DNA from: an uncultured Candidatus Saccharibacteria bacterium
Lineage (GTDB): Bacteria; Patescibacteriota; Andersenbacteria; UBA10190
DNA length: 64,000 nucleotides
Assembly: GCA_964610055.1 (NCBI GenBank)
Contig: CAZSUC010000001.1
Span: forward strand, 588,977 to 652,976
Direction: 5' to 3'
The position numbers were made by a program, and so were the translations under genes. Shown piece by piece: positions 50,607 through 63,644 of this stretch. The notes below the pieces were generated by a model that did not search any database, had not been told where the DNA came from, and saw nothing but the letters and a program-made list of their open reading frames with translations. The first letter of the stretch is position 1; the number at the start of each line of letters is the position of its first letter.

Positions 50607-51149
50607 TTAAGATAACATAATCTTATTCGCCGCTTCATCTAACGACTCCACTATCATATCCGGCTGAACTGATAATTCTTCCGCTTGCCAGTACTGGCTT
50701 TTTATCAACGCTGTTTTTGTTCCTAGCTTTTTACCGAACAATAAATCCGCCTCTTTATCCCCAATTGTCCAACTCGCCGCATAATCAATCTTCCCGATTT
50801 TTTCTTCAATCTGTCGCGCCATTCCAATTTCCGGCTTCCGACACTCACACCCCGCTTCTCGATGATGAGGGCAATACGCAATCACATCTAATTCTGCTCC
50901 TGATTTTTTCAATTCGGCCTGCATATATATATGCAAAGCTTCTACATCCGCTTCCGTGTACAACCCATGCCCAATACCAGACTGATTCGTAATCAACGCT
51001 AATTTAAACCCGGCTGCTTTCAAGTTATGCAACGCCTCTTTGGCTCGTGGCTTAAACTGCCAATCTTCCTTCCGATATACATATCCACAATCATGATTAA
51101 TCGTCCCGTCACGATCCAAAAAAACTACCTTATTCTCCTCGCTCGGCAT
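50607..51149 (-). CDS. gmhB: D,D-heptose 1,7-bisphosphate phosphatase
   Basis: VFLDRDGTIN (HAD DxDGT) and CxHx..C.CRKP (the zinc-binding CxH...CxC of GmhB). Confidence 0.8.
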   Translation of the reverse strand: MPSEENKVVFLDRDGTINHDCGYVYRKEDWQFKPRAKEALHNLKAAGFKLALITNQSGIGHGLYTEADVEALHIYMQAELKKSGAELDVIAYCPHHREAGCECRKPEIGMARQIEEKIGKIDYAASWTIGDKEADLLFGKKLGTKTALIKSQYWQAEELSVQPDMIVESLDEAANKIMLS

Positions 51150-52131
51150 AATGCGCTAATAAATCTATAATTTCATCAGCCGTTACTCCGGTTGCTCCAA
51201 TTTTATGAGCATTGATTGTTCCCGCCGCGTGACCTAAAATCGCTGCCTCTTCATCACTTGCTCCAACTAACTTGGCTAACAAGATTGCCGCCGAAGCCGA
51301 ATCACCGCAGCCGGACGTATCCAAAACTTCATCATCACCCGTAAATTCTTGTTGCGCATGATATGACTTCCCGTCTCGATTCAAAACATAAATTCCATTC
51401 TCAGACAAAGTTAAAAATACATTCGTGTTAAATGTATCTCGCAACAACCCCGCTAATTCACTCGGCTCCTTCTGATTATCAAACTGGTTAAGGCCCAAAA
51501 ACTCATAGGCTTCCTTCCGATTAGGAGATATATAATCTGCTCCGGTAAAGAAGTTTATCCGCGACGGTTTTACATCCGCCATCACTGGCACCCCGGCTGA
51601 ACGCGCCGCCTCCATTACTGCTAACGCTGTCTTTTGCGTCACACAACCTTTGGCATAATCTGACACTAAAACCCCGTCTACTTCTGAAATAATATCTTGA
51701 ATTGCTTGCACCGCCTCTGCTTCCGCCGCTCCTTTAACTTCCCGCTTGTCTTCATAATCAACTCTCAACATCTGCTGTGTGCGCACGACATATCTAATTT
51801 TTTCTGTCGTTGGCCGCGTTGCATCACTAATCAGTCTAATCTTATACCCTTCCTGTTCTGCTGCCTGCTCCAACTCACGCGCCACCGCATCGCCACCACC
51901 AACTGCCACTAATTCCGCTTGGCCGCCAATCGTCACTATATTCTTAGCCACGTTCCCCGCACCACCCGTAACTTTTCTCTCATCTGTTACTTCCAGAATA
52001 GGTACCGGCGCCTCTGGATTTAATCGTTCCACTTTACCGGTAATATACCGATCCAACATTACATCGCCAAATACTAATACTTTTTTGGATTTAAACTCAC
52101 TTAAAATTTGTCGTGCTTTGTCTGCTTTCAT
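51130..52131 (-). CDS. hldA: D-glycero-beta-D-manno-heptose 7-phosphate kinase (RfaE domain I-like, pfkB/ribokinase family)
   Basis: KVLVFGDVMLDRY..GKVERLNPEAPVPI and C-terminal DTSGCGDSASAA (ribokinase anion-hole). 333 aa. Confidence 0.8.
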   Translation of the reverse strand: MKADKARQILSEFKSKKVLVFGDVMLDRYITGKVERLNPEAPVPILEVTDERKVTGGAGNVAKNIVTIGGQAELVAVGGGDAVARELEQAAEQEGYKIRLISDATRPTTEKIRYVVRTQQMLRVDYEDKREVKGAAEAEAVQAIQDIISEVDGVLVSDYAKGCVTQKTALAVMEAARSAGVPVMADVKPSRINFFTGADYISPNRKEAYEFLGLNQFDNQKEPSELAGLLRDTFNTNVFLTLSENGIYVLNRDGKSYHAQQEFTGDDEVLDTSGCGDSASAAILLAKLVGASDEEAAILGHAAGTINAHKIGATGVTADEIIDLLAHYAERGE

Positions 52132-52751: not shown

Positions 52752-53591
52752 CTACGTCTCCGCCTTACGATTTCGCAAATAATCACTTAAGGCCTCTTCC
52801 CAGGTTCTCATATTCGGACCTCGATCATTAATCAGCACACTCCATTCTGGTCGTTGAGCCGGCCGCGGATATTCGACTGCTTTGATCGGCACCACCTTAA
52901 CTTGTTTATTCGCCAACTCAAAAATCTTCTGTGCAAAACCATACCAAGTTGTCATGCCTTGATTAACTCCATGATAAATTCCCGGCTTATAGCCAGCTTG
53001 CACTAATTCTTTAGTATACCTGGCTAAATCAACCGTATAAGTGGGTGAGCCATGCTGGTCATTTACTACTTTGATTTCATTTTGCGAATCAGCCAACTTC
53101 AGCATCGTTTCCACAAAATTACGCCCACCCGCTCCATACAACCAAGCTGTACGCACTAAAAAATACTCACCACCCACAGTGGCTAAGGCCTTCTCACCGG
53201 CTAATTTTGACTCGCCATACGCATTCACTGCCGGACCAGGCATATCATTTTCTTGATACCCCTCCGCTTTATCCCCTGGAAAAACATAGTCAGTACTGTA
53301 ATGCACTAAACTAATCTCCAACTCACGGGCTACCTGAGCAATATTTCTAACCCCTATCTCATTAACTGCCAAAGCTGCTTCTTGATCAGTTTCCGCTCCA
53401 TCAACATTCGTATACGCCGCTGCATTCAAAATCCAAGCTGGTTTTTCTGCTGTAATTTTTTCTCTCACTGCCTGGACGTCAGTAACATCCAACTGCTCCC
53501 GATCCCACGCCACCACTTCTTGGTCACTCCAAACTTCCGTTAAAGCCTGGCCTAACATTCCTCCCGCACCCAAAATCACAACTTTGCTCAT
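52752..53591 (-). CDS. rfbD: dTDP-4-dehydrorhamnose reductase
   Basis: MSKVVILGAGGMLGQAL...YTNVD...YGESK. Start chosen at the ATG in an ATGA overlap with the upstream stop. Confidence 0.8.
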   Translation of the reverse strand: MSKVVILGAGGMLGQALTEVWSDQEVVAWDREQLDVTDVQAVREKITAEKPAWILNAAAYTNVDGAETDQEAALAVNEIGVRNIAQVARELEISLVHYSTDYVFPGDKAEGYQENDMPGPAVNAYGESKLAGEKALATVGGEYFLVRTAWLYGAGGRNFVETMLKLADSQNEIKVVNDQHGSPTYTVDLARYTKELVQAGYKPGIYHGVNQGMTTWYGFAQKIFELANKQVKVVPIKAVEYPRPAQRPEWSVLINDRGPNMRTWEEALSDYLRNRKAET

Positions 53592-54544
53592 CGCTTCTGA
53601 GGCAAATACCAATTTTTCATCCATTCCACTAAATCACGCACACCATCTTGAACCGATATCTCTGGAATCCAACCTAATAGTTTTTGCGCTTTCGTTGTAT
53701 CAGCATACGTTACTCGCATTTCTCCCGCCGGTGATTCCATCGGCACAATTATTGGCGATTTTCCAGCCGCCTCGGCAATTGCATCCACTAACTTACGTAA
53801 AGGCACTGGTTCACCTCGGCCAGCATTAATAATCTCAAATCCCAAATCTTTATCGACCGCCGCCCCAATTGCTCGCACTAAATCATTGATATGCGTTACA
53901 TCTCTTTGTCGATCATCCTTATTTAACGGCACCTCTGCCTCCGTTAGAATTTTTTCCGCAAAAATCATTGGTGCCATATCTGGCCGACCCCATGGCCCAT
54001 ACACACTGAAAAAACGTAGTACAGTAATCGGTAAACCGTGCAAATCATGCCACATCGAACAATAATCTTCTGCTGCTGCTTTACTGGCTCCATATGGAGA
54101 TTTCGGCCGTAACGGATAAGTAGTTTCTTCAAACGGAGTCTGTTCATCGTTATACACCGACGAGCTCCCCGCAAAAACCAAGCGCTTCACATCGTATTTA
54201 GTCGCCGCCTCTAATACTGCCAAAGTACCATTTACATTCGTATACGTATATTCTTGCGCTCGTATTACACTCTCTTTCGGATTTGCATGTGCCGCCAAAT
54301 GAAGTACTACTTCAAACTTCCCCTCTCTAAAAGTTTTTTCTAACAACTCAGCGTCAGTAATATCACCCTCAATCACCGGTACTTCATTCTTCAGAAAGTC
54401 TGTTACCCGTGCTCGTTTTAACCACGATGGATACAAAAAATCACTAAAATTATCCCATAACACCACTTCATCCCCGCGCTCTTGCAACATTTTTGCCGCG
54501 TGACTCCCTACAAATCCCGCTCCACCAGTAATTAATACTTTCAT
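53588..54544 (-). CDS. NAD-dependent epimerase, UDP-glucuronate 4-epimerase-like
   Basis: MKVLITGGAGFVGSH..., YGASK, and the diagnostic RFFSVYGPWGRPDMAPMIF motif. It occupies the slot where rmlB would be expected. Confidence 0.7.
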   Translation of the reverse strand: MKVLITGGAGFVGSHAAKMLQERGDEVVLWDNFSDFLYPSWLKRARVTDFLKNEVPVIEGDITDAELLEKTFREGKFEVVLHLAAHANPKESVIRAQEYTYTNVNGTLAVLEAATKYDVKRLVFAGSSSVYNDEQTPFEETTYPLRPKSPYGASKAAAEDYCSMWHDLHGLPITVLRFFSVYGPWGRPDMAPMIFAEKILTEAEVPLNKDDRQRDVTHINDLVRAIGAAVDKDLGFEIINAGRGEPVPLRKLVDAIAEAAGKSPIIVPMESPAGEMRVTYADTTKAQKLLGWIPEISVQDGVRDLVEWMKNWYLPQKR

Positions 54545-54545
54545 A

Positions 54546-55091
54546 TTAAAAACCTTCCGCTTGTTCTAATTTCGGCAAAGCCGCGTCTCGTTTTGATAAA
54601 ATAGGTTCTTTGACCGGCCAATCCACGCCAATCTTAGCATCATTCCAAACAATTCCTCCTTCTGTTTCCGGCGCATAATAGTCAGAACATAAATACAAAA
54701 CATCAGCTGTCTCCGAAGTTACGCAAAAACCATGCGCAAATCCTGTCGGAATGTATAGCATCTCAGCTTTTTCTGCCTTCAGCATTGCTCCGGCCCACAT
54801 GCCATAAGTCGGCTTATCTCTGCGCAAATCAACTGCTACATCAAAAATCTCTCCACTTAAAGGCATAATTAATTTTGCCTGCGCTTGTGGAAATTTCTGA
54901 TAATGTAATCCTCGCAAGACATTTTTCTTGCTACGCGATCGATTAAACTGCACCCATGGCCCCCGCACCCCGTAATCATTAAAAATATTCTCCCGCACCA
55001 TTTCACTAAAAAAACCTCTCTCATCCGGATAAACATCCGACGTAATATGTAAAACTTCCGGCAATGATAGTTTTTCAATCACAAAAGCCAT
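54546..55091 (-). CDS. rfbC: dTDP-4-dehydrorhamnose 3,5-epimerase
   Basis: RGFFSEMVR...RGLHYQ...HGFCV cupin motifs. Start taken at MAFVIEKL. Confidence 0.85.
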   Translation of the reverse strand: MAFVIEKLSLPEVLHITSDVYPDERGFFSEMVRENIFNDYGVRGPWVQFNRSRSKKNVLRGLHYQKFPQAQAKLIMPLSGEIFDVAVDLRRDKPTYGMWAGAMLKAEKAEMLYIPTGFAHGFCVTSETADVLYLCSDYYAPETEGGIVWNDAKIGVDWPVKEPILSKRDAALPKLEQAEGF

Positions 55092-55150
55092 AAAGGAAAA
55101 AGTTAACAATCTTTGACCTGACAATACCGGTTTTGTCCCGGTTGGTCAAT

Positions 55151-57896: not shown

Positions 57897-59519
57897 TTAT
57901 TCCAACATTCCACCAAACCTTGGCGTCTCGGTCCCTGCATCTAATTTAACTTTCCATTTCCGCGGCAAATATTTTCGCAACACTTCTAACTCCTCACATC
58001 GGAATAACATACATAACCCTAAATAGGCCATTGCCCCGCCTACAAAGGCTCCAACCATCTGTACGCTCACACCCCAAAACCGCGTCATATTCACCCAAGG
58101 CTCAATTGCATACTTTAATCCTTGTACCACCATACCAGCCAATCCGCTCGCCACCGCGATCCTGATCATACTTGCCACCACCGCTTTATCATCAAACCCA
58201 TTCAGTTCTATATGCAGTTTTCCTAGCAATAACACCAAAGTTATAATCGCTGATGCCGAAAAAGCCAAGGCCAATCCTTCCACCCCCATACGCGGCGACA
58301 ACCAAATTGCCAATCCAATATTCGCCGCCATACTAATCAAAGAAATAACAACTGGTGTTGCTGTATTTTGTCTGACATAAAAAGCCCTAATCAACAACGG
58401 AGCGGCTGCTTGAGCAAATAAACTAACCAACAATAGACCTAAAATTGAATACGTCATAATAGTATCATTCCAATCAAACGCCCCATCACCAAACAAAACT
58501 CGCACAATTTGAGCGCGTAATAAATAAGCAAAAGCCGCGGTTGGTACTGTTAAAAAGATAATATAACGAAATGTTCGCGTTAGCGTCATCCGAAAATCTT
58601 TCGCCTGCTTCCGCGCCCATTGTTCGGCTAATGTTGGAAAAGCCGCTTGCGCAAATGCCAATCCAAAAATACCCACCGGTACGCTTTGAATGTTATTCGC
58701 CAAATGAAATGTCGCAATACTGCCAGCCGAAAGAGTCGAGCCAATAATGGTTACTAAAAACAAATTCATTTGTTGGCCTGCCATACCAAACATTCTCGGT
58801 ATAATCATCCGCCGTAAAGTTTTTACGTCTTTTGATTTCCATTTCATAACCGGACGCCACCGCCATCCCAACCGCCAAACACTCGGCAATTGAACTAAAG
58901 CATGCAAAGCTGCTCCTAACACCACCCCCCATCCTAACCCCGCCACTCCTAACCATGGCACCAGCCACACCACACCAACAATAATACCGATGTTGTAAAC
59001 AATCGGAGCCAACGCATACGCCACAAATCGCTTAAATGAATTCAGCACCCCTGAAAACATAAAGCTAATACTCAATAAAATTGGCTGTAATGCCATTATG
59101 CGAGATAAAGTGATCGTCATTTCTAACTTATCTCCCATAAAACCAGGTGTAATTAAAGGCACAATCCAACGCGCCCCTAATGCATATCCTGCGCTCAACA
59201 CTATCACTGTTAACAACACAATATTTAAGACCGACAAAGAGAAGTCAAAGGCCTCCTCATGATTACCTTTTTTACCTTTAACTAATTTCTCCGTAAACAA
59301 CGGAATGAAGGCTGCCGATAAAGCGCCCATCACTACTAAATTAAAAATCAAATCCGGCAAACGGAAAGCTGCAACAAACGCATCAAAAATATCGCCGGCC
59401 CCAAAAGTCGTAGTCATCACCCGTTCCCGTAACAACCCCACGACACGCGACCCTAACGACGCTACCGAGAGCCACAAAGCTGCTGAAATTAATTTTTGTG
59501 TATTGCCGTTCTTAATCAC
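57897..59519 (-). CDS. murJ: Lipid II flippase MurJ/MviN
   Basis: 540 aa, 14 predicted TM helices, N-terminus LGSRVVGLLRERVMTTTFGAGDIFDAFVAAFRLPD typical of MurJ. Confidence 0.85.
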   Translation of the reverse strand: MIKNGNTQKLISAALWLSVASLGSRVVGLLRERVMTTTFGAGDIFDAFVAAFRLPDLIFNLVVMGALSAAFIPLFTEKLVKGKKGNHEEAFDFSLSVLNIVLLTVIVLSAGYALGARWIVPLITPGFMGDKLEMTITLSRIMALQPILLSISFMFSGVLNSFKRFVAYALAPIVYNIGIIVGVVWLVPWLGVAGLGWGVVLGAALHALVQLPSVWRLGWRWRPVMKWKSKDVKTLRRMIIPRMFGMAGQQMNLFLVTIIGSTLSAGSIATFHLANNIQSVPVGIFGLAFAQAAFPTLAEQWARKQAKDFRMTLTRTFRYIIFLTVPTAAFAYLLRAQIVRVLFGDGAFDWNDTIMTYSILGLLLVSLFAQAAAPLLIRAFYVRQNTATPVVISLISMAANIGLAIWLSPRMGVEGLALAFSASAIITLVLLLGKLHIELNGFDDKAVVASMIRIAVASGLAGMVVQGLKYAIEPWVNMTRFWGVSVQMVGAFVGGAMAYLGLCMLFRCEELEVLRKYLPRKWKVKLDAGTETPRFGGMLE

Positions 59520-59522
59520 ACC

Positions 59523-61466
59523 TTATTGCCTTTCTAAAACCGCCCCTACCAACACGTCTTGGTTAAGCTCTCCTCGATAAACCAACTCTTGGCTGCTTGT
59601 TGTTGTAATTCCGTCATGAGGGATAGTATGCACAATCCCTATGTTTTCGGGAAGCCGTATTTCTACTCGCACTTCTGTTCGATTATCACCTGGTTGTTTT
59701 ACTACATAAGTTTCGTATCTCTCTGCTGGATCTAACAAATCCGGTAAGTCCGCTGCGCCCGGTAATCGATAGCGGTAAATTCCCACTGTCGTTGCTCCCG
59801 GTTTAGTTATCATCCAATTAGCAAAAAACTTATATCCACTTTCTTGACCAATCACCGTGCCGCTAACATCCGCCACTTGCGCTCGTTGCCATTCCGCTAA
59901 ATCAGGATCAGCCGTTAATTCCTCTGGCAATTCTGGAAAATCATATCGCGGCACATCTGCAGCTTCTGTAAAACCTCGTGCCTCTATTAACTCTGCCTCA
60001 TCCGGTACTAATACTCGCTGCCAAACTACATTATCTTTATACGCTGGGTTTTCGCCATCAGGATATTCACGATCCAATATCTCTTCCGGACCCCGATGCG
60101 TTCGCCTAATCGTAACTGTCACTTCCACATCGCCATTGCTTTGCACATCGCTGCGATAATCAATCTCTTGATCCATAAACTGATCACTCTTATGCCCTCC
60201 AATATTTGTATTATTTACATAAAGCAAGCCTAACTGTTCCTCAGGCAACTCTCCACTCCAATTTAACTCATGTACTCGCGCCTGTTCCTCTGTTCTTGTT
60301 AAATTAACTAATAAACTTTTTTTCTGAATTGCATTATTCATGACATTTAACACATCTAATACTGCTTTCGAATCTTGTGCGAACACTCGATTCAACAAAA
60401 CCGGCGTTAAGTCAGCCAAAAATTGTTTCGGCCGATTAACTTCTTTATCGTAATCATATGTCACCTCGTCTTGAGTTAGCGCAATGAAGTTATCCTCATC
60501 CACCGTCACGTTATAAGTTGGCATTTCAATTGGACCAGTAATCGCTAACAAATCTTGAATAATCTCTGGAGTAATTGCAATGACTCCATCCACCTTTGAT
60601 CCACCCTCCTTTTCCCAAAACGACTGAATTTTCTCTGCACTTAAGTCAAAATCAACAAACCAATTAGCATCTCGTAAGTACCATCTATCCGTAATTCCTC
60701 GCATCGGATCAGGTGGTGCAATATATTCTTTTAATTGTCCGTCCGGATCATATACTGTTTGCACATCTACTTCTTCCACCTGACCTCGACTAACATTTAC
60801 CACTCCTAGACTTCCAATAAATCCACCTGTTGGCCGCAATTCATGATTGTTTTGAAACACTAACAAATAACGTCGATCTTCTTGCGCTCCTAAAACTGAT
60901 AACAATAAATCACTTTGTTCATTGAAAGATTGAATTGATGCTAATAATTCTGGCACTACTTCTTTCAACATTTGCGCAGGCTCTTTTACGGATGCTGGCA
61001 ACAACAAAGTATTAACGCCATTTAAGTTTTCGACTGCGTCTTCCAACGCCGCTTGTGCCACTCCCATATTCTCTTGTGTAATCTCCAGCGCGCCAACCAA
61101 AGTCCTTTCCGACTTTTGATTACTACCGATTACCGACCCACTTGAAGCCATTAAAACAGACAACGCTTCCGTAACTCTCTGCCCTGCCTCAGTTACACTT
61201 TCCGCTGCCGCTAACATATTATCGCCTGAACGGACTGTGCCTGTAACATCTAAAGTTTCTAGAACTAATCGCGATGCTGATAAAGCATCCCGCAGTTGCT
61301 CTCGCGCTTCCATCAATTGCTCCTTGGCGTTAGCAAAATTTTCACTCCCAGTTTCAAAATCGCTTTGCGATACCGCCGCCTGCGCAGCTGCCACTTCATT
61401 CAAAGCCTCTTTCGTGCGTCTAATAATTGGGCCAATTGCAACATACCCTCGACCCAAAGCTTGCAA
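59523..61466 (-). CDS. DUF4012-domain protein, membrane-anchored extracytoplasmic part (apparently frameshifted from its N-terminal region)
   Basis: YLLVFQNNHELRPTGGFIGSLG is the DUF4012 signature. The frame stays open upstream through a TM helix (LVSNALILIIGCGIGWLAL) to a stop inside the A9 tract with no canonical start. The ORF-track start is TTG. Confidence 0.6.
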   Translation of the reverse strand: MQALGRGYVAIGPIIRRTKEALNEVAAAQAAVSQSDFETGSENFANAKEQLMEAREQLRDALSASRLVLETLDVTGTVRSGDNMLAAAESVTEAGQRVTEALSVLMASSGSVIGSNQKSERTLVGALEITQENMGVAQAALEDAVENLNGVNTLLLPASVKEPAQMLKEVVPELLASIQSFNEQSDLLLSVLGAQEDRRYLLVFQNNHELRPTGGFIGSLGVVNVSRGQVEEVDVQTVYDPDGQLKEYIAPPDPMRGITDRWYLRDANWFVDFDLSAEKIQSFWEKEGGSKVDGVIAITPEIIQDLLAITGPIEMPTYNVTVDEDNFIALTQDEVTYDYDKEVNRPKQFLADLTPVLLNRVFAQDSKAVLDVLNVMNNAIQKKSLLVNLTRTEEQARVHELNWSGELPEEQLGLLYVNNTNIGGHKSDQFMDQEIDYRSDVQSNGDVEVTVTIRRTHRGPEEILDREYPDGENPAYKDNVVWQRVLVPDEAELIEARGFTEAADVPRYDFPELPEELTADPDLAEWQRAQVADVSGTVIGQESGYKFFANWMITKPGATTVGIYRYRLPGAADLPDLLDPAERYETYVVKQPGDNRTEVRVEIRLPENIGIVHTIPHDGITTTSSQELVYRGELNQDVLVGAVLERQ

Positions 61467-61525
61467 ATTTTGTAACGCTAACCAACCAATCCCACATCCA
61501 ATAATTAGGATCAGGGCATTAGAAA

Positions 61526-62218
61526 CTAATCGACGTACAGTTTTTTTTTACGCCAAGCCTCCTTTAACGCTTCTGTTAACTCTATGTCTTGTCCGGCTTT
61601 TGCCGGAACAATATTTTTCGGAAAAATACTAAAGTGCAGAGGTAAGGCAAACCGACGCTTAGGCGGTTGGATTGCATTTTGCTCATTTACTTTAATCTCT
61701 GCTCCGTCAGGTTTTTGCTTTTTGTCTTCCCATTCATACGGCATATCTCGCTCTTTTGTAATCAGTACCTTAACCGGCTTTGGTTGCATCATTTTTGTTT
61801 TATTGGTTCCTCGGGCTGGAGGAGTCATTCTTTTCGATTGCGCCAACATGTTTCCATACGGCGGCAACATTACACTCGCCCCCGGCTTATTCTCTCGCCA
61901 TACATCGCCAGTATGTTGTTCTACTCCTCGTTTCGGTTTCGGCGTTCGCCGCATAGAATATAGAGGATACTTTGAAGGTAATTCAGAATATAAAGGTCTC
62001 CGCTCAAATTGAATAATTGCTTGCTGTTGTCGCCTCTTGCGTCTTTGTCTTTCTAATTCATATCGTACTGGGCGGCGCAAACGTGCTGGCAATTTCCAAT
62101 CAAACTGCACAACTGGCGGCTGCGGTTTAGCCGCTTTCTTCGGTACTCGCCGTGTCTTTCCGTGCGCAATTTTTCGCTCCGGTCTTAACGGTTTTTTTGG
62201 AGGAACTACATCGTACAC
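61526..62218 (-). CDS. Basic proline/lysine-rich ORF, probable N-terminal cytoplasmic region of the DUF4012 protein
   Basis: 230-aa K/R/P-rich low-complexity ORF ending ...WRKKKLYVD* in the A9 tract at 61541-61549. A +1 A would fuse it in frame to the TM helix and DUF4012 domain. Confidence 0.45.
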   Translation of the reverse strand: MYDVVPPKKPLRPERKIAHGKTRRVPKKAAKPQPPVVQFDWKLPARLRRPVRYELERQRRKRRQQQAIIQFERRPLYSELPSKYPLYSMRRTPKPKRGVEQHTGDVWRENKPGASVMLPPYGNMLAQSKRMTPPARGTNKTKMMQPKPVKVLITKERDMPYEWEDKKQKPDGAEIKVNEQNAIQPPKRRFALPLHFSIFPKNIVPAKAGQDIELTEALKEAWRKKKLYVD

Positions 62219-62252: not shown

Positions 62253-63644
62253 ATGTCACAGTTTCTCCCTCTTGGTCAGCATGATCTACCACCCGCCCTA
62301 TCTTTCCGCCGCTTGATTGGCCCCAGCTTTATTATCTTAGGTCTCGGCTTAGGTAGCGGCGAGGTCATTCTTTGGCCTTATCTTTCTAGTAACTATGGTC
62401 TCGGTATTGTTTGGGCTATTGTCGTCGGTATTACCATGCAGTTTTTCATCAACTTAGAAGTCGAACGATACGCTTTAATTTATGGTGAAAGCATTTTTGT
62501 CGGTTTCGCACGCATGCTGCGTTATCTTCCCGCCTGGTTTATTCTCACCACCTTCTTTGGTTTCGGCTGGCCCGGTATCGGTTTAGCCGGCGCAACTTTA
62601 CTTGCTCATGCTTTCGGTATTTCTAATGTAAACATCGCGGCCATCGCCATCTTTCTCCTTATCGGACTTATCTTGTCTTTTGGACGCGTTCTTTACCAAA
62701 CCGTTGAAAATATTCAAAAATGGCTGATCGGCTTAGGTGTCCCGGCAATTATTCTGCTCACTCTTTACCTATCTTCTCGAGCTGACTTTGTTGTTCTCGC
62801 CCAAGGTTTAATTGGCCACGGTCACAATTTTTGGTTCTTACCCGACGGCTTAGCAATTGCTGCTTTTTTAGGCGCTCTGGCTTTCTCTGGGGCAGGCGGA
62901 AATCTTAATCTGGCTCAATCTTTTTACGTGCGCGACAAAGGTTACGGCATGGGAAAATATTCTGCACGAATTACTAATCTGCTCCACGAAAATCAAGATG
63001 ACGCTCACTTTCACCTCACCGGCTCCACTTTCCCTCTGTCTTCTTCTAACCTCAGTCGCTTTCATCGTTGGTGGCGCATCATGAATCTCGAACACTTTTT
63101 AATTTTTTGGGTTCTCGGTTTGATTACAATGTTAACCCTAGCTTTATTAGCTTACGTCACCGCTTACGGCACACCTGGCAATGAGCAAAATATTACTTTC
63201 GTTCTCAATGAAGCCACTGCCATCAGCCAACTCACTCTTCCTGTTATCAGCCTGTTATTCCTGATCATAACTGGCATCATGCTTTCCGCCACCCAGATGA
63301 CTGTGCTTGATTCCACTAGTCGTATCATCGCCGAAAATTGGCTGCTCTTTACGCGCAAAGCTAAAGGCAAAATGGCACACCTGTATTATTTTATTCTTTG
63401 GGCTCAAATCGCTTTTGGAATCCTGGTTTTCCTGGCTGGATTTAACGAACCGAAACAATTAATTATTACTTCCGCTGTCATTAATGCTTTCACCATGTTT
63501 ATTTACACCGGACTTTTACTTTGGTTAAATAATAGTCGCTTGCCTCAACCTCTTAAACCTCGTGCCTGGCGCAATGTCGCTCTCGCTATTACTTTTCTCT
63601 TTTTCGGTGTTTTCTGCGTTTTGTATCTCATTGATAAATTTTAA
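62253..63644 (+). CDS. NRAMP-family-like divalent metal transporter
   Basis: 463 aa, 11-12 TM helices. N-terminal GPSFIILGLGLGSGEVILWP and a MQFF...E-containing TM3 resemble Nramp/MntH-like proteins. Confidence 0.5.
   Translation: MSQFLPLGQHDLPPALSFRRLIGPSFIILGLGLGSGEVILWPYLSSNYGLGIVWAIVVGITMQFFINLEVERYALIYGESIFVGFARMLRYLPAWFILTTFFGFGWPGIGLAGATLLAHAFGISNVNIAAIAIFLLIGLILSFGRVLYQTVENIQKWLIGLGVPAIILLTLYLSSRADFVVLAQGLIGHGHNFWFLPDGLAIAAFLGALAFSGAGGNLNLAQSFYVRDKGYGMGKYSARITNLLHENQDDAHFHLTGSTFPLSSSNLSRFHRWWRIMNLEHFLIFWVLGLITMLTLALLAYVTAYGTPGNEQNITFVLNEATAISQLTLPVISLLFLIITGIMLSATQMTVLDSTSRIIAENWLLFTRKAKGKMAHLYYFILWAQIAFGILVFLAGFNEPKQLIITSAVINAFTMFIYTGLLLWLNNSRLPQPLKPRAWRNVALAITFLFFGVFCVLYLIDKF

What the first reader, a model, noticed from the sequence alone, without database searches (positions are those of the whole stretch)
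61526..61560. A9 homopolymer splits a DUF4012 envelope protein from its basic N-terminal domain (frameshift or slippage site)
The 230-aa K/R/P-rich ORF ends ...KKKLYVD* inside AAAAAAAAA (minus strand, plus-strand coordinates 61541-61549). The downstream DUF4012 frame is open right through the tract (KKTVRRLVSNALILIIGCGIGWLALQNL...) but has no ATG or GTG. The ORF-track start is a TTG after the TM helix. Inserting a single A fuses the two into one protein of about 900 aa: cytoplasmic basic domain, then TM, then DUF4012. That is the usual architecture for this family. It is either a homopolymer sequencing error, a recent pseudogenisation, or a site of transcriptional or ribosomal slippage on A9.
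Basis: seen in the sequence. Interest (0 to 1): 0.5.

Follow-up and report, generated by a model that had tools for sequence, protein, structure and literature searches.

The report
Conserved poly-A frameshift in envelope gene
A run of nine A's splits a cell-envelope gene of an uncultured Patescibacteria (Andersenbacteria) bacterium into two reading frames, and the same split recurs in at least 14 related genomes, so it is probably a built-in slippage site that yields a short cytoplasmic protein and a full-length membrane protein, not a sequencing error.

Summary
On the minus strand, T-A9 (61550; 61549-61541) encodes KKK at the end of a 230-aa basic ORF. The stop is 12 nt after the tract, not inside it. 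The transmembrane helix and DUF4012 ectodomain continue in the -1 frame, and one extra A gives an 898-aa protein that aligns end to end with full-length Andersenbacteria orthologs.

It is not a one-off. Fifteen independent loci, from different assemblers and samples, carry the same split at the same site. Fourteen have exactly A9 and one has A8, and all need the same -1 correction. All nine short orthologs I looked up were split there, and 30 stand-alone N-terminal ORF clusters end KKK plus 0-13 residues. Four sister lineages carry the tract in frame (A9 or A10). Runs of nine or more A/T are otherwise almost absent from about 400 kb of these genomes. I found no conserved Shine-Dalgarno-like motif or downstream hairpin.

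Best explanation: slippage during expression, most likely RNA polymerase adding one A. Unslipped mRNA would give the cytoplasmic domain alone; slipped mRNA the full-length protein. DNA-level phase variation is the main rival. This is a new member of a known kind, and I found no report of recoding in CPR bacteria.

The parts
61526..62218 (-). Zero-frame ORF (230 aa, GTG start). It encodes the basic, mostly disordered cytoplasmic N-terminal domain and ends ...AWRKKKLYVD*.
   Evidence: It is homologous to the N-terminus of full-length orthologs and to 30 stand-alone N-terminal ORF clusters. AF2 pLDDT is below 50 for residues 1-226 except the helix at 51-68. No Pfam hit.
61541..61549 (-). A9 tract (T9 on the + strand) encoding KKK (fused residues 224-226). 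Proposed slippage site; in the zero frame it also forms the heptamer A_AAA_AAA.
   Evidence: Exactly A9 at the homologous site in 14 of 15 split loci and A8 in one. The same site holds 19 of the 20 A/T runs of 9 or more found in about 406 kb of Andersenbacteria DNA.
61550..61550 (-). T immediately 5' of the tract. With the first two A's it forms TAA (61550-61548), which closes the -1 frame right up to the tract.
   Evidence: T at this position in 17 of 19 tract-bearing loci, although the preceding codon encodes nine different amino acids. Its role is unexplained.
61526..61528 (-). Zero-frame stop TAG, four codons after the tract.
   Evidence: Zero-frame tails after the tract are 1-13 codons in the 15 split loci.
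59523..61547 (-). -1 frame ORF (674 codons plus stop): juxtamembrane segment, TM helix, coiled-coil and DUF4012 ectodomain. It is reached only by a -1 shift, or one extra A, within the tract.
   Evidence: tblastn frame change at fused residue about 225. The conserved x-N-hydrophobic-(I/V)GC motif is read in this frame in all split loci.
61473..61529 (-). Predicted transmembrane helix (fused residues 231-249, LVSNALILIIGCGIGWLAL). It lies upstream of the first canonical start codon of this frame (TTG at 61466).
   Evidence: nearly invariant G/C/L columns; helix 217-284.
60465..60881 (-). Pfam DUF4012 (PF13196) domain, fused residues 447-585.
   Evidence: E = 1.6e-33, 116.6 bits against a cutoff of 28.
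61558..61564 (-). Shine-Dalgarno-like AAGGAGG, 8 nt upstream of the tract. A possible local stimulator of ribosomal -1 slippage, but not conserved.
   Evidence: An SD-like motif at 12-16 nt is present in only 4 of 15 split loci.

Best explanation
**What it is.** The two ORFs are one gene for a bitopic envelope protein: a basic, disordered cytoplasmic domain, one TM helix, and a DUF4012 ectodomain. A conserved T-A9 tract sits at the cytoplasm/membrane boundary and leaves the gene one A short of being in frame.

**How it works (inferred).** During expression a fraction of molecules is shifted at the tract. Most likely RNA polymerase slips on the nine A:T pairs and adds one untemplated A. A minor contribution from -1 ribosomal slippage on A_AAA_AAA is possible.
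- Shifted mRNA (A10) gives the full-length 898-aa membrane protein, reading ...RKKK-TVRRLVSN...
- Templated mRNA (A9) gives the 230-aa cytoplasmic domain alone, with a 4-residue tail.

Sister lineages carry the same tract in frame (A9 or A10). There the same slippage would produce the truncated form as the minor product. The tract therefore either sets a ratio of two isoforms or rescues a fixed one-base deletion, as in endosymbionts.

**Shown here:** the anatomy, the homology, and conservation of the tract, the frame and the direction of the shift.
**Inferred:** that slippage occurs, at which level, and that both products matter.

The confidence of 0.65 is for transcription-dominant recoding. 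Recoding at either level (this explanation plus the ribosomal rival) I put at about 0.77.
For: 1. The fused protein aligns over 96-100% of its length with single-ORF orthologs, including N-terminal motifs and the juxtamembrane/TM segment.
2. Fifteen loci from independent sources (GTDB MAGs, JGI, ENA, Logan; MEGAHIT and SPAdes contig names) are split at the homologous site. Fourteen have A9 and one has A8, and all need -1. If the two directions were equally likely, agreement of all 15 has probability about 6e-5. Adding one A is also the commonest RNAP slippage product on A runs (Gueguen 2014).
3. All 9 short (about 650-aa) orthologs I looked up are split there. Thirty stand-alone N-terminal ORF clusters all end KKK plus 0-13 residues.
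4. A clade of 15 sequences sharing only about 45-55% identity is entirely split: 9 confirmed at the DNA level, 6 inferred from gene calls. The state is therefore stably inherited, with both ORFs intact.
5. The tract is conserved at the nucleotide level. Lys codons elsewhere in these genes are only 58% AAA, so three AAA in 14 loci has probability about 1e-10 if independent.
6. A/T runs of 9 or more are otherwise nearly absent: 1 elsewhere against 19 at this site in about 406 kb. In the window, 1 is observed against 6.4 expected. Baranov et al. 2005 treat such depletion as a sign that runs of this length are slippage-prone.
7. Twelve of 15 split loci have no ATG, GTG or TTG between the tract and the TM helix, and there is no promoter-like site between the ORFs.
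8. No conserved SD or downstream hairpin and no Rfam element. This fits polymerase slippage, which needs only the run, as argued for tssM.
9. Experimentally shown precedents exist: T. thermophilus dnaX (A9, about 50%), Shigella mxiE, C. rodentium tssM (A11), and frameshifted cell-wall genes of Buchnera rescued at poly(A).
Against: - There are no RNA, protein or read-level data, so slippage itself is not shown.
- In-frame A10 (L171, L001) and in-frame A9 (L002, L009) relatives exist. The frame state has therefore changed several times in evolution, which a DNA-level switch would also produce.
- The loci are phylogenetically related, so the probabilities quoted overstate independence.
- Every split tract is also a valid -1 ribosomal heptamer, and the window has an AAGGAGG at dnaX-like spacing, so the level of slippage is not resolved. 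Both mechanisms give the same protein sequence.
- Many related lineages have no tract at all, so the short isoform cannot be universally required.
- Four stand-alone N-terminal ORFs end KKKI..., which hints at other tract lengths whose DNA I could not retrieve.
Confidence: 0.65

Rival explanations
1. DNA-level phase variation. The tract is a hypermutable contingency locus that toggles A9 (OFF) and A10 (ON) by replication slippage. The full-length envelope protein would be made only in ON cells, and assemblies report the majority state.
For: The gene encodes a predicted surface-exposed envelope protein with a homopolymer in its coding region. Both in-frame A10 (L171, L001) and out-of-frame A9 states occur among relatives, with several transitions on the tree. 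Baranov 2005 notes that such runs are also hypermutable in replication.
Against: Fifteen of 19 tract-bearing loci are OFF-looking, and an entire clade of 15 diverged lineages is OFF. Close relatives from different samples share the same state and the same zero-frame tail, for example the KKKVLQRVYG trio and the GKKKL pair. Tract length is confined to 8-10, with 14 of 15 split loci at exactly 9. No A11 or A12, and no state needing the opposite shift, is seen. No other long tracts occur in about 406 kb, unlike organisms with multiple contingency loci. No full-length variant at 90% identity or more to the window protein exists in the 5.8-billion-cluster collection, though sampling of this species is thin.
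Confidence: 0.15
2. Programmed -1 ribosomal frameshifting is the main mechanism. tRNA-Lys slips on A_AAA_AAA (A_AAA_AAG in L010), or ribosomes slide on iterated AAA codons, with no change in the mRNA.
For: In all 15 split loci the tract contains a canonical X_XXY_YYZ heptamer in the zero frame, in three different phasings. The window has AAGGAGG 8 nt upstream of the tract, which resembles the E. coli dnaX stimulator spacing (spacing recalled from my own knowledge; motif). A few loci have a hairpin 5-8 nt downstream (L084, L162, L169). Ribosome sliding on iterated AAA Lys codons has been reported (Koutmou 2015, PMC4363877, abstract only).
Against: Stimulators are not conserved: an SD-like motif appears in 4 of 15 loci, downstream folding z-scores average about -0.6, and 10 of 15 lie between -1 and +1. 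Seven A's would suffice for ribosomal slippage, yet nine are kept in 14 of 15 loci and synonymous AAG is never used. Nine is the length at which polymerase slippage becomes evident in many bacteria.
Confidence: 0.12
3. Gene fission. The frameshift split the gene into two independently translated proteins, or left the C-terminal part as a decaying pseudogene, and the tract is a relic.
For: Gene callers annotate two genes in every split locus. Two or three loci (L162, L169, possibly L170) have a GTG or TTG upstream of the TM helix.
Against: Twelve of 15 loci have no canonical start before the TM helix, so an independently initiated product would lack its membrane anchor. The C-terminal ORF is intact and well conserved in all split lineages. 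A relic would not keep exactly A9 with the T in front. The -1 frame is read as conserved juxtamembrane sequence immediately after the tract.
Confidence: 0.05
4. Homopolymer sequencing or assembly error: the true sequence is A10.
For: A single-base length error in a long homopolymer is a common artefact of some platforms. The sequencing platform of the window's assembly is unknown, and its 698-kb contig could not be traced to an accession.
Against: The same state appears in 15 independent assemblies from at least four pipelines. In-frame A10 tracts were assembled correctly elsewhere (L171 from the same SRA project series as several A9 loci; L001). The ORF1 product ending KKKLYVD is recorded on 3 contigs from NCBI and Logan. 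Of the 49 other runs in the window (A/T 7 or more, C 6 or more, G 5 or more), 44 lie inside intact long ORFs and none splits a gene.
Confidence: 0.02

Closest known systems
Thermus thermophilus dnaX (transcriptional slippage on A9 giving tau and gamma)
   Same: Exactly nine A's in the sense strand of a cellular, non-mobile gene. Slippage yields two products from one gene, one of them a truncated N-terminal form with a short out-of-frame tail. The in-frame A9/A10 Andersenbacteria lineages (L002, L009, L171, L001) have exactly this layout.
   Different: In dnaX the long product is the templated one. In the window and 14 other loci the long product needs the slip. The protein family and cellular process differ. 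Slippage has been shown experimentally for dnaX but not here.
Citrobacter rodentium / Yersinia pseudotuberculosis tssM, and Shigella mxiE and spa13 (transcriptional frameshifting needed for the longer product)
   Same: An envelope or secretion-system gene is interrupted at a poly-A (or T) run. Untemplated A's restore the frame, short and full-length variants are both made, and no SD or hairpin stimulators are present.
   Different: tssM has A11 and the event is known in a few enterobacterial strains. Here A9 is conserved across dozens of deeply diverged CPR lineages, and it sits exactly at the cytoplasm/TM boundary, so the short form lacks the membrane anchor altogether.
Poly(A)-tract frameshifted genes of Buchnera and Blochmannia rescued by polymerase slippage (Tamas et al. 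2008, as summarised in Atkins et al. 2016)
   Same: Small-genome bacteria with a one-base indel in a long poly(A) run inside cell-wall genes. The tract is conserved, and 12-50% of transcripts are corrected.
   Different: Those genomes are over 70% A+T with many long tracts. These genomes are 42-58% G+C, and long tracts are otherwise almost absent, so the site stands out as specifically retained.
E. coli dnaX / IS3-family -1 programmed ribosomal frameshifting (A_AAA_AAG)
   Same: A lysine slippery heptamer in the zero frame, a -1 direction, and a truncated versus extended product. The window has an upstream SD-like AAGGAGG.
   Different: The defining stimulators (upstream SD and downstream stem-loop) are not conserved here, and the run is longer than a ribosomal site needs.
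Phase-variable homopolymer contingency loci of surface proteins (Neisseria, Haemophilus, Campylobacter, Helicobacter, Mycoplasma; from my own knowledge)
   Same: A homopolymer inside an envelope-protein gene, with in-frame and out-of-frame states both seen among relatives.
   Different: The length range is narrow (8-10), the out-of-frame state is stably inherited through a whole clade, and there are no other tracts in the available DNA.

Membership tests
Programmed transcriptional slippage site (T. thermophilus dnaX / mxiE / tssM type) | Homopolymeric A or T run long enough to fill the RNA:DNA hybrid (about 9 or more) inside a coding region | tested here: met
   A9 at 61541-61549. A9 in 14 of 15 split orthologous loci and A8 in one.
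Programmed transcriptional slippage site (T. thermophilus dnaX / mxiE / tssM type) | Insertion of one untemplated base joins two ORFs into a product homologous to single-ORF proteins | tested here: met
   The fused 898-aa protein covers 96-100% of the full-length orthologs.
Programmed transcriptional slippage site (T. thermophilus dnaX / mxiE / tssM type) | Run and frame disruption conserved among orthologs from diverged lineages | tested here: met
   Fifteen loci, all needing -1. A 15-member clade is entirely split. Thirty N-terminal ORF clusters end at KKK.
Programmed transcriptional slippage site (T. thermophilus dnaX / mxiE / tssM type) | Heterogeneous mRNA population with extra A's not present in the DNA | not testable with these tools
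   No reads or transcriptomes are accessible.
-1 programmed ribosomal frameshift (E. coli dnaX / IS3 type) | Slippery heptamer X_XXY_YYZ in the zero frame | tested here: met
   CGT AAA AAA AAA C contains A_AAA_AAA. L010 has A_AAA_AAG and L169 has A_AAA_AAA.
-1 programmed ribosomal frameshift (E. coli dnaX / IS3 type) | Conserved stimulators: an upstream SD-like element and/or a downstream stem-loop or pseudoknot at fixed spacing | tested here: not met
   SD-like motif in 4 of 15 loci. Downstream 59-60-nt folds have z-scores from -2.7 to +0.75, mean about -0.6, with no common structure. No Rfam match.
Phase-variable contingency locus (slipped-strand mispairing) | Tract-length polymorphism giving ON and OFF states within a species or population | tested here: inconclusive
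   In-frame A10 and A9 and out-of-frame A9 and A8 occur in different species. No within-species variant was found, but no read data are available.
Phase-variable contingency locus (slipped-strand mispairing) | Several such tracts per genome in surface or envelope genes | tested here: not met
   Only 1 other A/T run of 9 or more in about 406 kb of Andersenbacteria DNA, and none elsewhere in the 64-kb window. Whole genomes were not examined.
DUF4012 (Pfam PF13196) | Match to the family HMM above the gathering score | tested here: met
   116.6 bits against 28; residues 447-585 of the fused protein, profile positions 2-142 of 144.

The most novel reading that the evidence does not exclude
The T-A9 tract is a selected recoding switch, not merely a tolerated lesion. 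It would fix the stoichiometry between a soluble, disordered, basic cytoplasmic protein and the full-length membrane-anchored DUF4012 protein, as dnaX does for tau and gamma. Andersenbacteria lineages would then tune that ratio over evolutionary time by moving between the in-frame (A10/A9) and one-short (A9) genotypes. That would make it the first programmed recoding event described in CPR/Patescibacteria, and one conserved over dozens of species in a core envelope gene next to murJ.
Probability: 0.3. Interest if true: 0.75.

Novelty: new member of a known kind. Interest (0 to 1): 0.62.

Why it matters
- Conserved recoding in non-mobile bacterial genes is rare (dnaX, prfB, copA, mxiE/spa13, tssM and a few others). 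I found no report for CPR/Patescibacteria or for DUF4012.
- This case is unusually well replicated by comparative data, and it sits exactly at the cytoplasm/membrane boundary of a conserved envelope protein encoded next to the lipid II flippase gene.
- It gives a testable example of how reduced-genome bacteria keep, or exploit, a one-base lesion.
- It also has a practical consequence. In dozens of MAGs the gene is annotated as two hypothetical proteins, one of them a DUF4012 protein that appears to lack its membrane anchor.
- The conserved T in front of the tract may say something about the sequence requirements of polymerase slippage.

Tried and rejected
- Conserved Shine-Dalgarno-like stimulator: present in the window (AAGGAGG) but in only 4 of 15 split loci.
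- Conserved downstream hairpin or pseudoknot: folding of the tract plus 59-60 nt in 15 loci gave no common structure and mostly insignificant z-scores.
- Rfam scan of 61200-61800: no match.
- Internal promoter between the ORFs: none. The only plausible promoter-like site lies upstream of ORF1.
- Second homopolymer-linked frameshift in the window, at the 20-nt overlap of 51130-52131 and 50607-51149 near an A7/T7 run: rejected, because these are complete PfkB and HAD domains.
- IMG/VR scan for more loci: nothing found.
- Exact look-up of the window's own DUF4012 ORF to find the source record: not on record. The cluster look-up gave no accession.
- Function of DUF4012 from structure: the AF2 model is good for the ectodomain, but PDB Foldseek hits are weak. 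These were OST subunit 1, an M1 peptidase domain, and the LCP-family protein YvhJ at TM 0.41. I draw no functional conclusion beyond 'extracytoplasmic envelope protein'.
- The L012 frame change seen in tblastn is caused by a run of N's, not by a frameshift.

Full report
**1. The observation**

On the minus strand the sequence reads GCT TGG CGT AAA AAA AAA CTG TAC GTC GAT TAG. The A9 run occupies 61549-61541 and is preceded by T at 61550. The zero-frame stop TAG is at 61528-61526, which is 12 nt after the run and not inside it. ORF1 (61526-62218, minus strand) is 230 aa, 36.5% K+R+P, pI 10.6.

The -1 frame is closed by TAA (61550-61548). It then runs open from 61547 to 59523 and encodes KK-TVRRLVSNALILIIGCGIGWLAL..., followed by the DUF4012 protein. 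Its first canonical start is the TTG at 61466, after the hydrophobic helix. Adding one A gives an 898-aa protein with Pfam DUF4012 at residues 447-585.

The run is the only homopolymer of 9 or more in the window. By count alone it is not unusual. Dinucleotide shuffles give 6.4 +/- 3.5 A9/T9 matches against 1 observed, so long runs are depleted.

**2. ORF1 is the N-terminus of the same protein**

The fused sequence retrieved 77 close relatives (E below 1e-185), named Candidatus Andersenbacteria where a name was given. That group belongs to the Parcubacteria group of Patescibacteria. About two thirds of these relatives are single ORFs of 740-970 aa covering 92-100% of the query. The rest are about 585-700 aa and cover only the C-terminal 65-75%.

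In alignment A1, ORF1 aligns with the N-terminal region of the long proteins. Shared motifs are WKLPARLRRP, FERRP, GAEHHTGDVY, PPY, RDVPY and PKRRFALPLHFSIFP. The -1-frame segment aligns with their juxtamembrane and TM segment (x-N-hydrophobic...GC).

An AlphaFold2 model predicts that:
- residues 1-226 are disordered except for a helix at 51-68;
- a long helix starts at 217 and includes the TM segment;
- the ectodomain is well folded (helical bundle, alpha/beta domain, beta-sandwich).

**3. The split is conserved**

I fetched DNA for relatives from GTDB genomes, JGI metagenomes and exact-protein look-ups. tblastn with the fused protein, followed by inspection of the junctions, shows a change to the -1 frame at the homologous position in 15 loci, counting the window.

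| Class | Loci |
|---|---|
| A9 followed by C | window, L081, L006, L007, L084, L162, L163, L166, L170 |
| A9 followed by G | L164, L165, L167, L168 |
| A9 in a different codon phase (GTA AAA AAA AAG) | L010 |
| A8 | L169 |

Further points:
- All nine short DUF4012 proteins I looked up turned out to be split at the tract.
- The contigs come from different samples and assemblers, judging by k141 (MEGAHIT) and NODE (SPAdes) contig names and by Logan and JGI records.
- A search with ORF1 alone found 30 stand-alone N-terminal ORF clusters. Every one runs from the conserved M-x-D-[VI]-x-P start to KKK plus 0-13 residues.
- In 12 of 15 split loci there is no ATG, GTG or TTG between the tract and the TM helix.
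- Both unproductive frames stop within 1-20 codons of the tract in all 19 tract-bearing loci.

**4. The tract itself is under selection**

- Lys codons elsewhere in these genes are 58% AAA, yet the three Lys codons at the site are AAA in all 14 A9 loci. If the loci were independent, the probability would be about 1e-10.
- In about 406 kb of Andersenbacteria DNA, 19 of the 20 A/T runs of 9 or more lie at this site.
- The base before the tract is T in 17 of 19 loci, although the preceding codon encodes nine different amino acids. I cannot explain this. A weak rU:dA pair that extends an all-A/U hybrid is one possibility.

**5. The tract also occurs in frame**

| Locus | Tract and reading |
|---|---|
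| L002 | in-frame A9 (KKKV...) |
| L009 (identical to L085) | in-frame A9 (KKKV...) |
| L171 (P0003, the closest full-length relative) | in-frame A10 (GTC AAA AAA AAA ATC) |
| L001 | in-frame A10 (AGT AAA AAA AAA ATT) |

About 25 other loci have no tract.

On a neighbour-joining tree of the C-terminal domain, one clade of 15 is entirely split: 9 members are confirmed at the DNA level and 6 are inferred from gene calls that begin in or after the TM helix. Its sister clade mixes split and in-frame members, and L010 (split) pairs with L002 (in-frame A9) elsewhere on the tree. The frame state has therefore changed several times, but it is stable within clades that share only about 45-55% identity.

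**6. Mechanism**

All 15 split loci need the same correction: one more A in the mRNA, or equivalently a -1 ribosomal slip. I found no conserved stimulator. An SD-like motif is present in 4 of 15 loci, including the window's AAGGAGG at 61564-61558. Downstream folds are mostly insignificant and share no structure. There is no Rfam match and no internal promoter.

Relevant precedents from the literature:
- Nine A's is the length at which selection against slippage-prone runs becomes evident in many bacteria, and it is the run used by T. thermophilus dnaX, where about 50% of product is shorter (Baranov et al. 2005).
- tssM in C. rodentium is rescued by untemplated A's at an A11 run that lacks SD or hairpin signals, and both length variants are needed (Gueguen et al. 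2014).
- Frameshifted cell-wall genes of aphid endosymbionts are corrected in 12-50% of transcripts (Atkins et al. 2016).

My conclusion is that RNA polymerase slippage is the most likely route. Ribosomal -1 slippage or sliding on iterated AAA codons may contribute. Both routes give the same protein...RKKK-TVRR...

**7. Rivals**

- *Phase variation* is the serious rival, because in-frame A10 relatives exist. Against it: the out-of-frame state dominates (15 of 19 loci) and fills a whole clade; close relatives from different samples share the same state and the same tail; tract length is confined to 8-10; and the available DNA holds no other tracts. Only read data can settle this.
- *Sequencing error* is excluded by replication across 15 assemblies, by correctly assembled A10 tracts, and by the intact ORFs around the other homopolymers in the window.
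- *Gene fission or pseudogenisation* does not explain the missing start codon, the orphaned TM helix, or the conserved tract.

**8. Context and function**

The synteny GT4 glycosyltransferase - [N-terminal ORF - DUF4012] - MurJ is conserved. In the window the gene is followed by murJ, lepA and dTDP-rhamnose genes. DUF4012 has been noted as enriched in CPR and Gram-positive bacteria and as linked to a capsule/EPS cluster in Bifidobacterium (Meheust et al. 2019). PDB fold matches are weak. I infer an envelope-assembly role but cannot be more specific.

**9. Novelty and verdict**

Full-text searches found no report of recoding in CPR/Patescibacteria and none for DUF4012. The mechanism class is well known, so this is a new member of a known kind. 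It is unusually well supported by comparative evidence, sits at a structurally meaningful position, and can be tested directly. Interest: 0.62.

Noticed in passing
window 1-64000 (whole window); also L081, L007, L004, L005: Extreme strand compositional asymmetry. GC skew is about -0.3 in every 2-kb bin whatever the gene orientation. Third-codon-position skew is -0.46 to -0.66 for plus-strand genes and +0.49 to +0.69 for minus-strand genes. G4 runs number 24 against 182 C4 runs. The closest relative L081 shares it (0.30). Most other Andersenbacteria loci are at 0.0-0.1.
   Followed up: partly
window 61550; homologous positions in L001, L002, L006, L007, L009, L010, L081, L084, L162-L168, L170: The base immediately 5' of the poly-A tract is T in 17 of 19 tract-bearing loci, in split and in-frame forms alike, although the preceding codon encodes nine different amino acids. 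It creates a TAA in the -1 frame, but it is also kept where that frame is irrelevant. Unexplained.
   Followed up: partly
L171 1485-1494; L001 4742-4751; L002 4679-4687; L009 4514-4522 (identical to L085 1719-1727): Sister lineages carry the same tract in frame (A10 reading KKKI, or A9 reading KKKV). If RNA polymerase slips there too, these genes would produce the truncated N-terminal form as a minor product, as in the Thermus dnaX layout.
   Followed up: partly
proteins P0123, P0128, P0138, P0149 (stand-alone N-terminal ORFs): Four N-terminal ORFs end KKKI... rather than KKK[LVRQA]. If all Lys codons are AAA, the tract would be A10 and still out of frame. The DNA could not be retrieved because the look-ups were exhausted.
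   Followed up: no
window 57897-59519(-), 52752-55124(-); L162-L170 flanks: The synteny GT4 glycosyltransferase - split DUF4012 gene - murJ is conserved. In the window, lepA and the dTDP-rhamnose genes (RmlC, RmlB-like, RmlD) follow, which suggests an envelope-polysaccharide neighbourhood.
   Followed up: partly
window 62253-63644(+); L081 1752-3146(-): A 463-aa ORF with no Pfam match lies divergently upstream of ORF1. From reading its sequence it appears to be a multi-pass membrane protein. It is conserved in the same position in the closest relative L081 (464 aa).
   Followed up: no
record titles of L006, L008-L011, L013-L015 and others: Many GTDB MAG records holding Andersenbacteria-type DUF4012 loci are titled 'uncultured Candidatus Saccharibacteria bacterium', and a few 'Gammaproteobacteria' or 'Rickettsiaceae'. 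These look like generic or wrong labels from an automated submission pipeline.
   Followed up: no
fused protein residues 1-226 (window 61541-62218, minus strand): The conserved N-terminal domain is predicted to be almost entirely disordered (pLDDT below 50), yet it carries six short, strongly conserved linear motifs. That pattern suggests a docking region for cytoplasmic partners rather than a folded domain.
   Followed up: no
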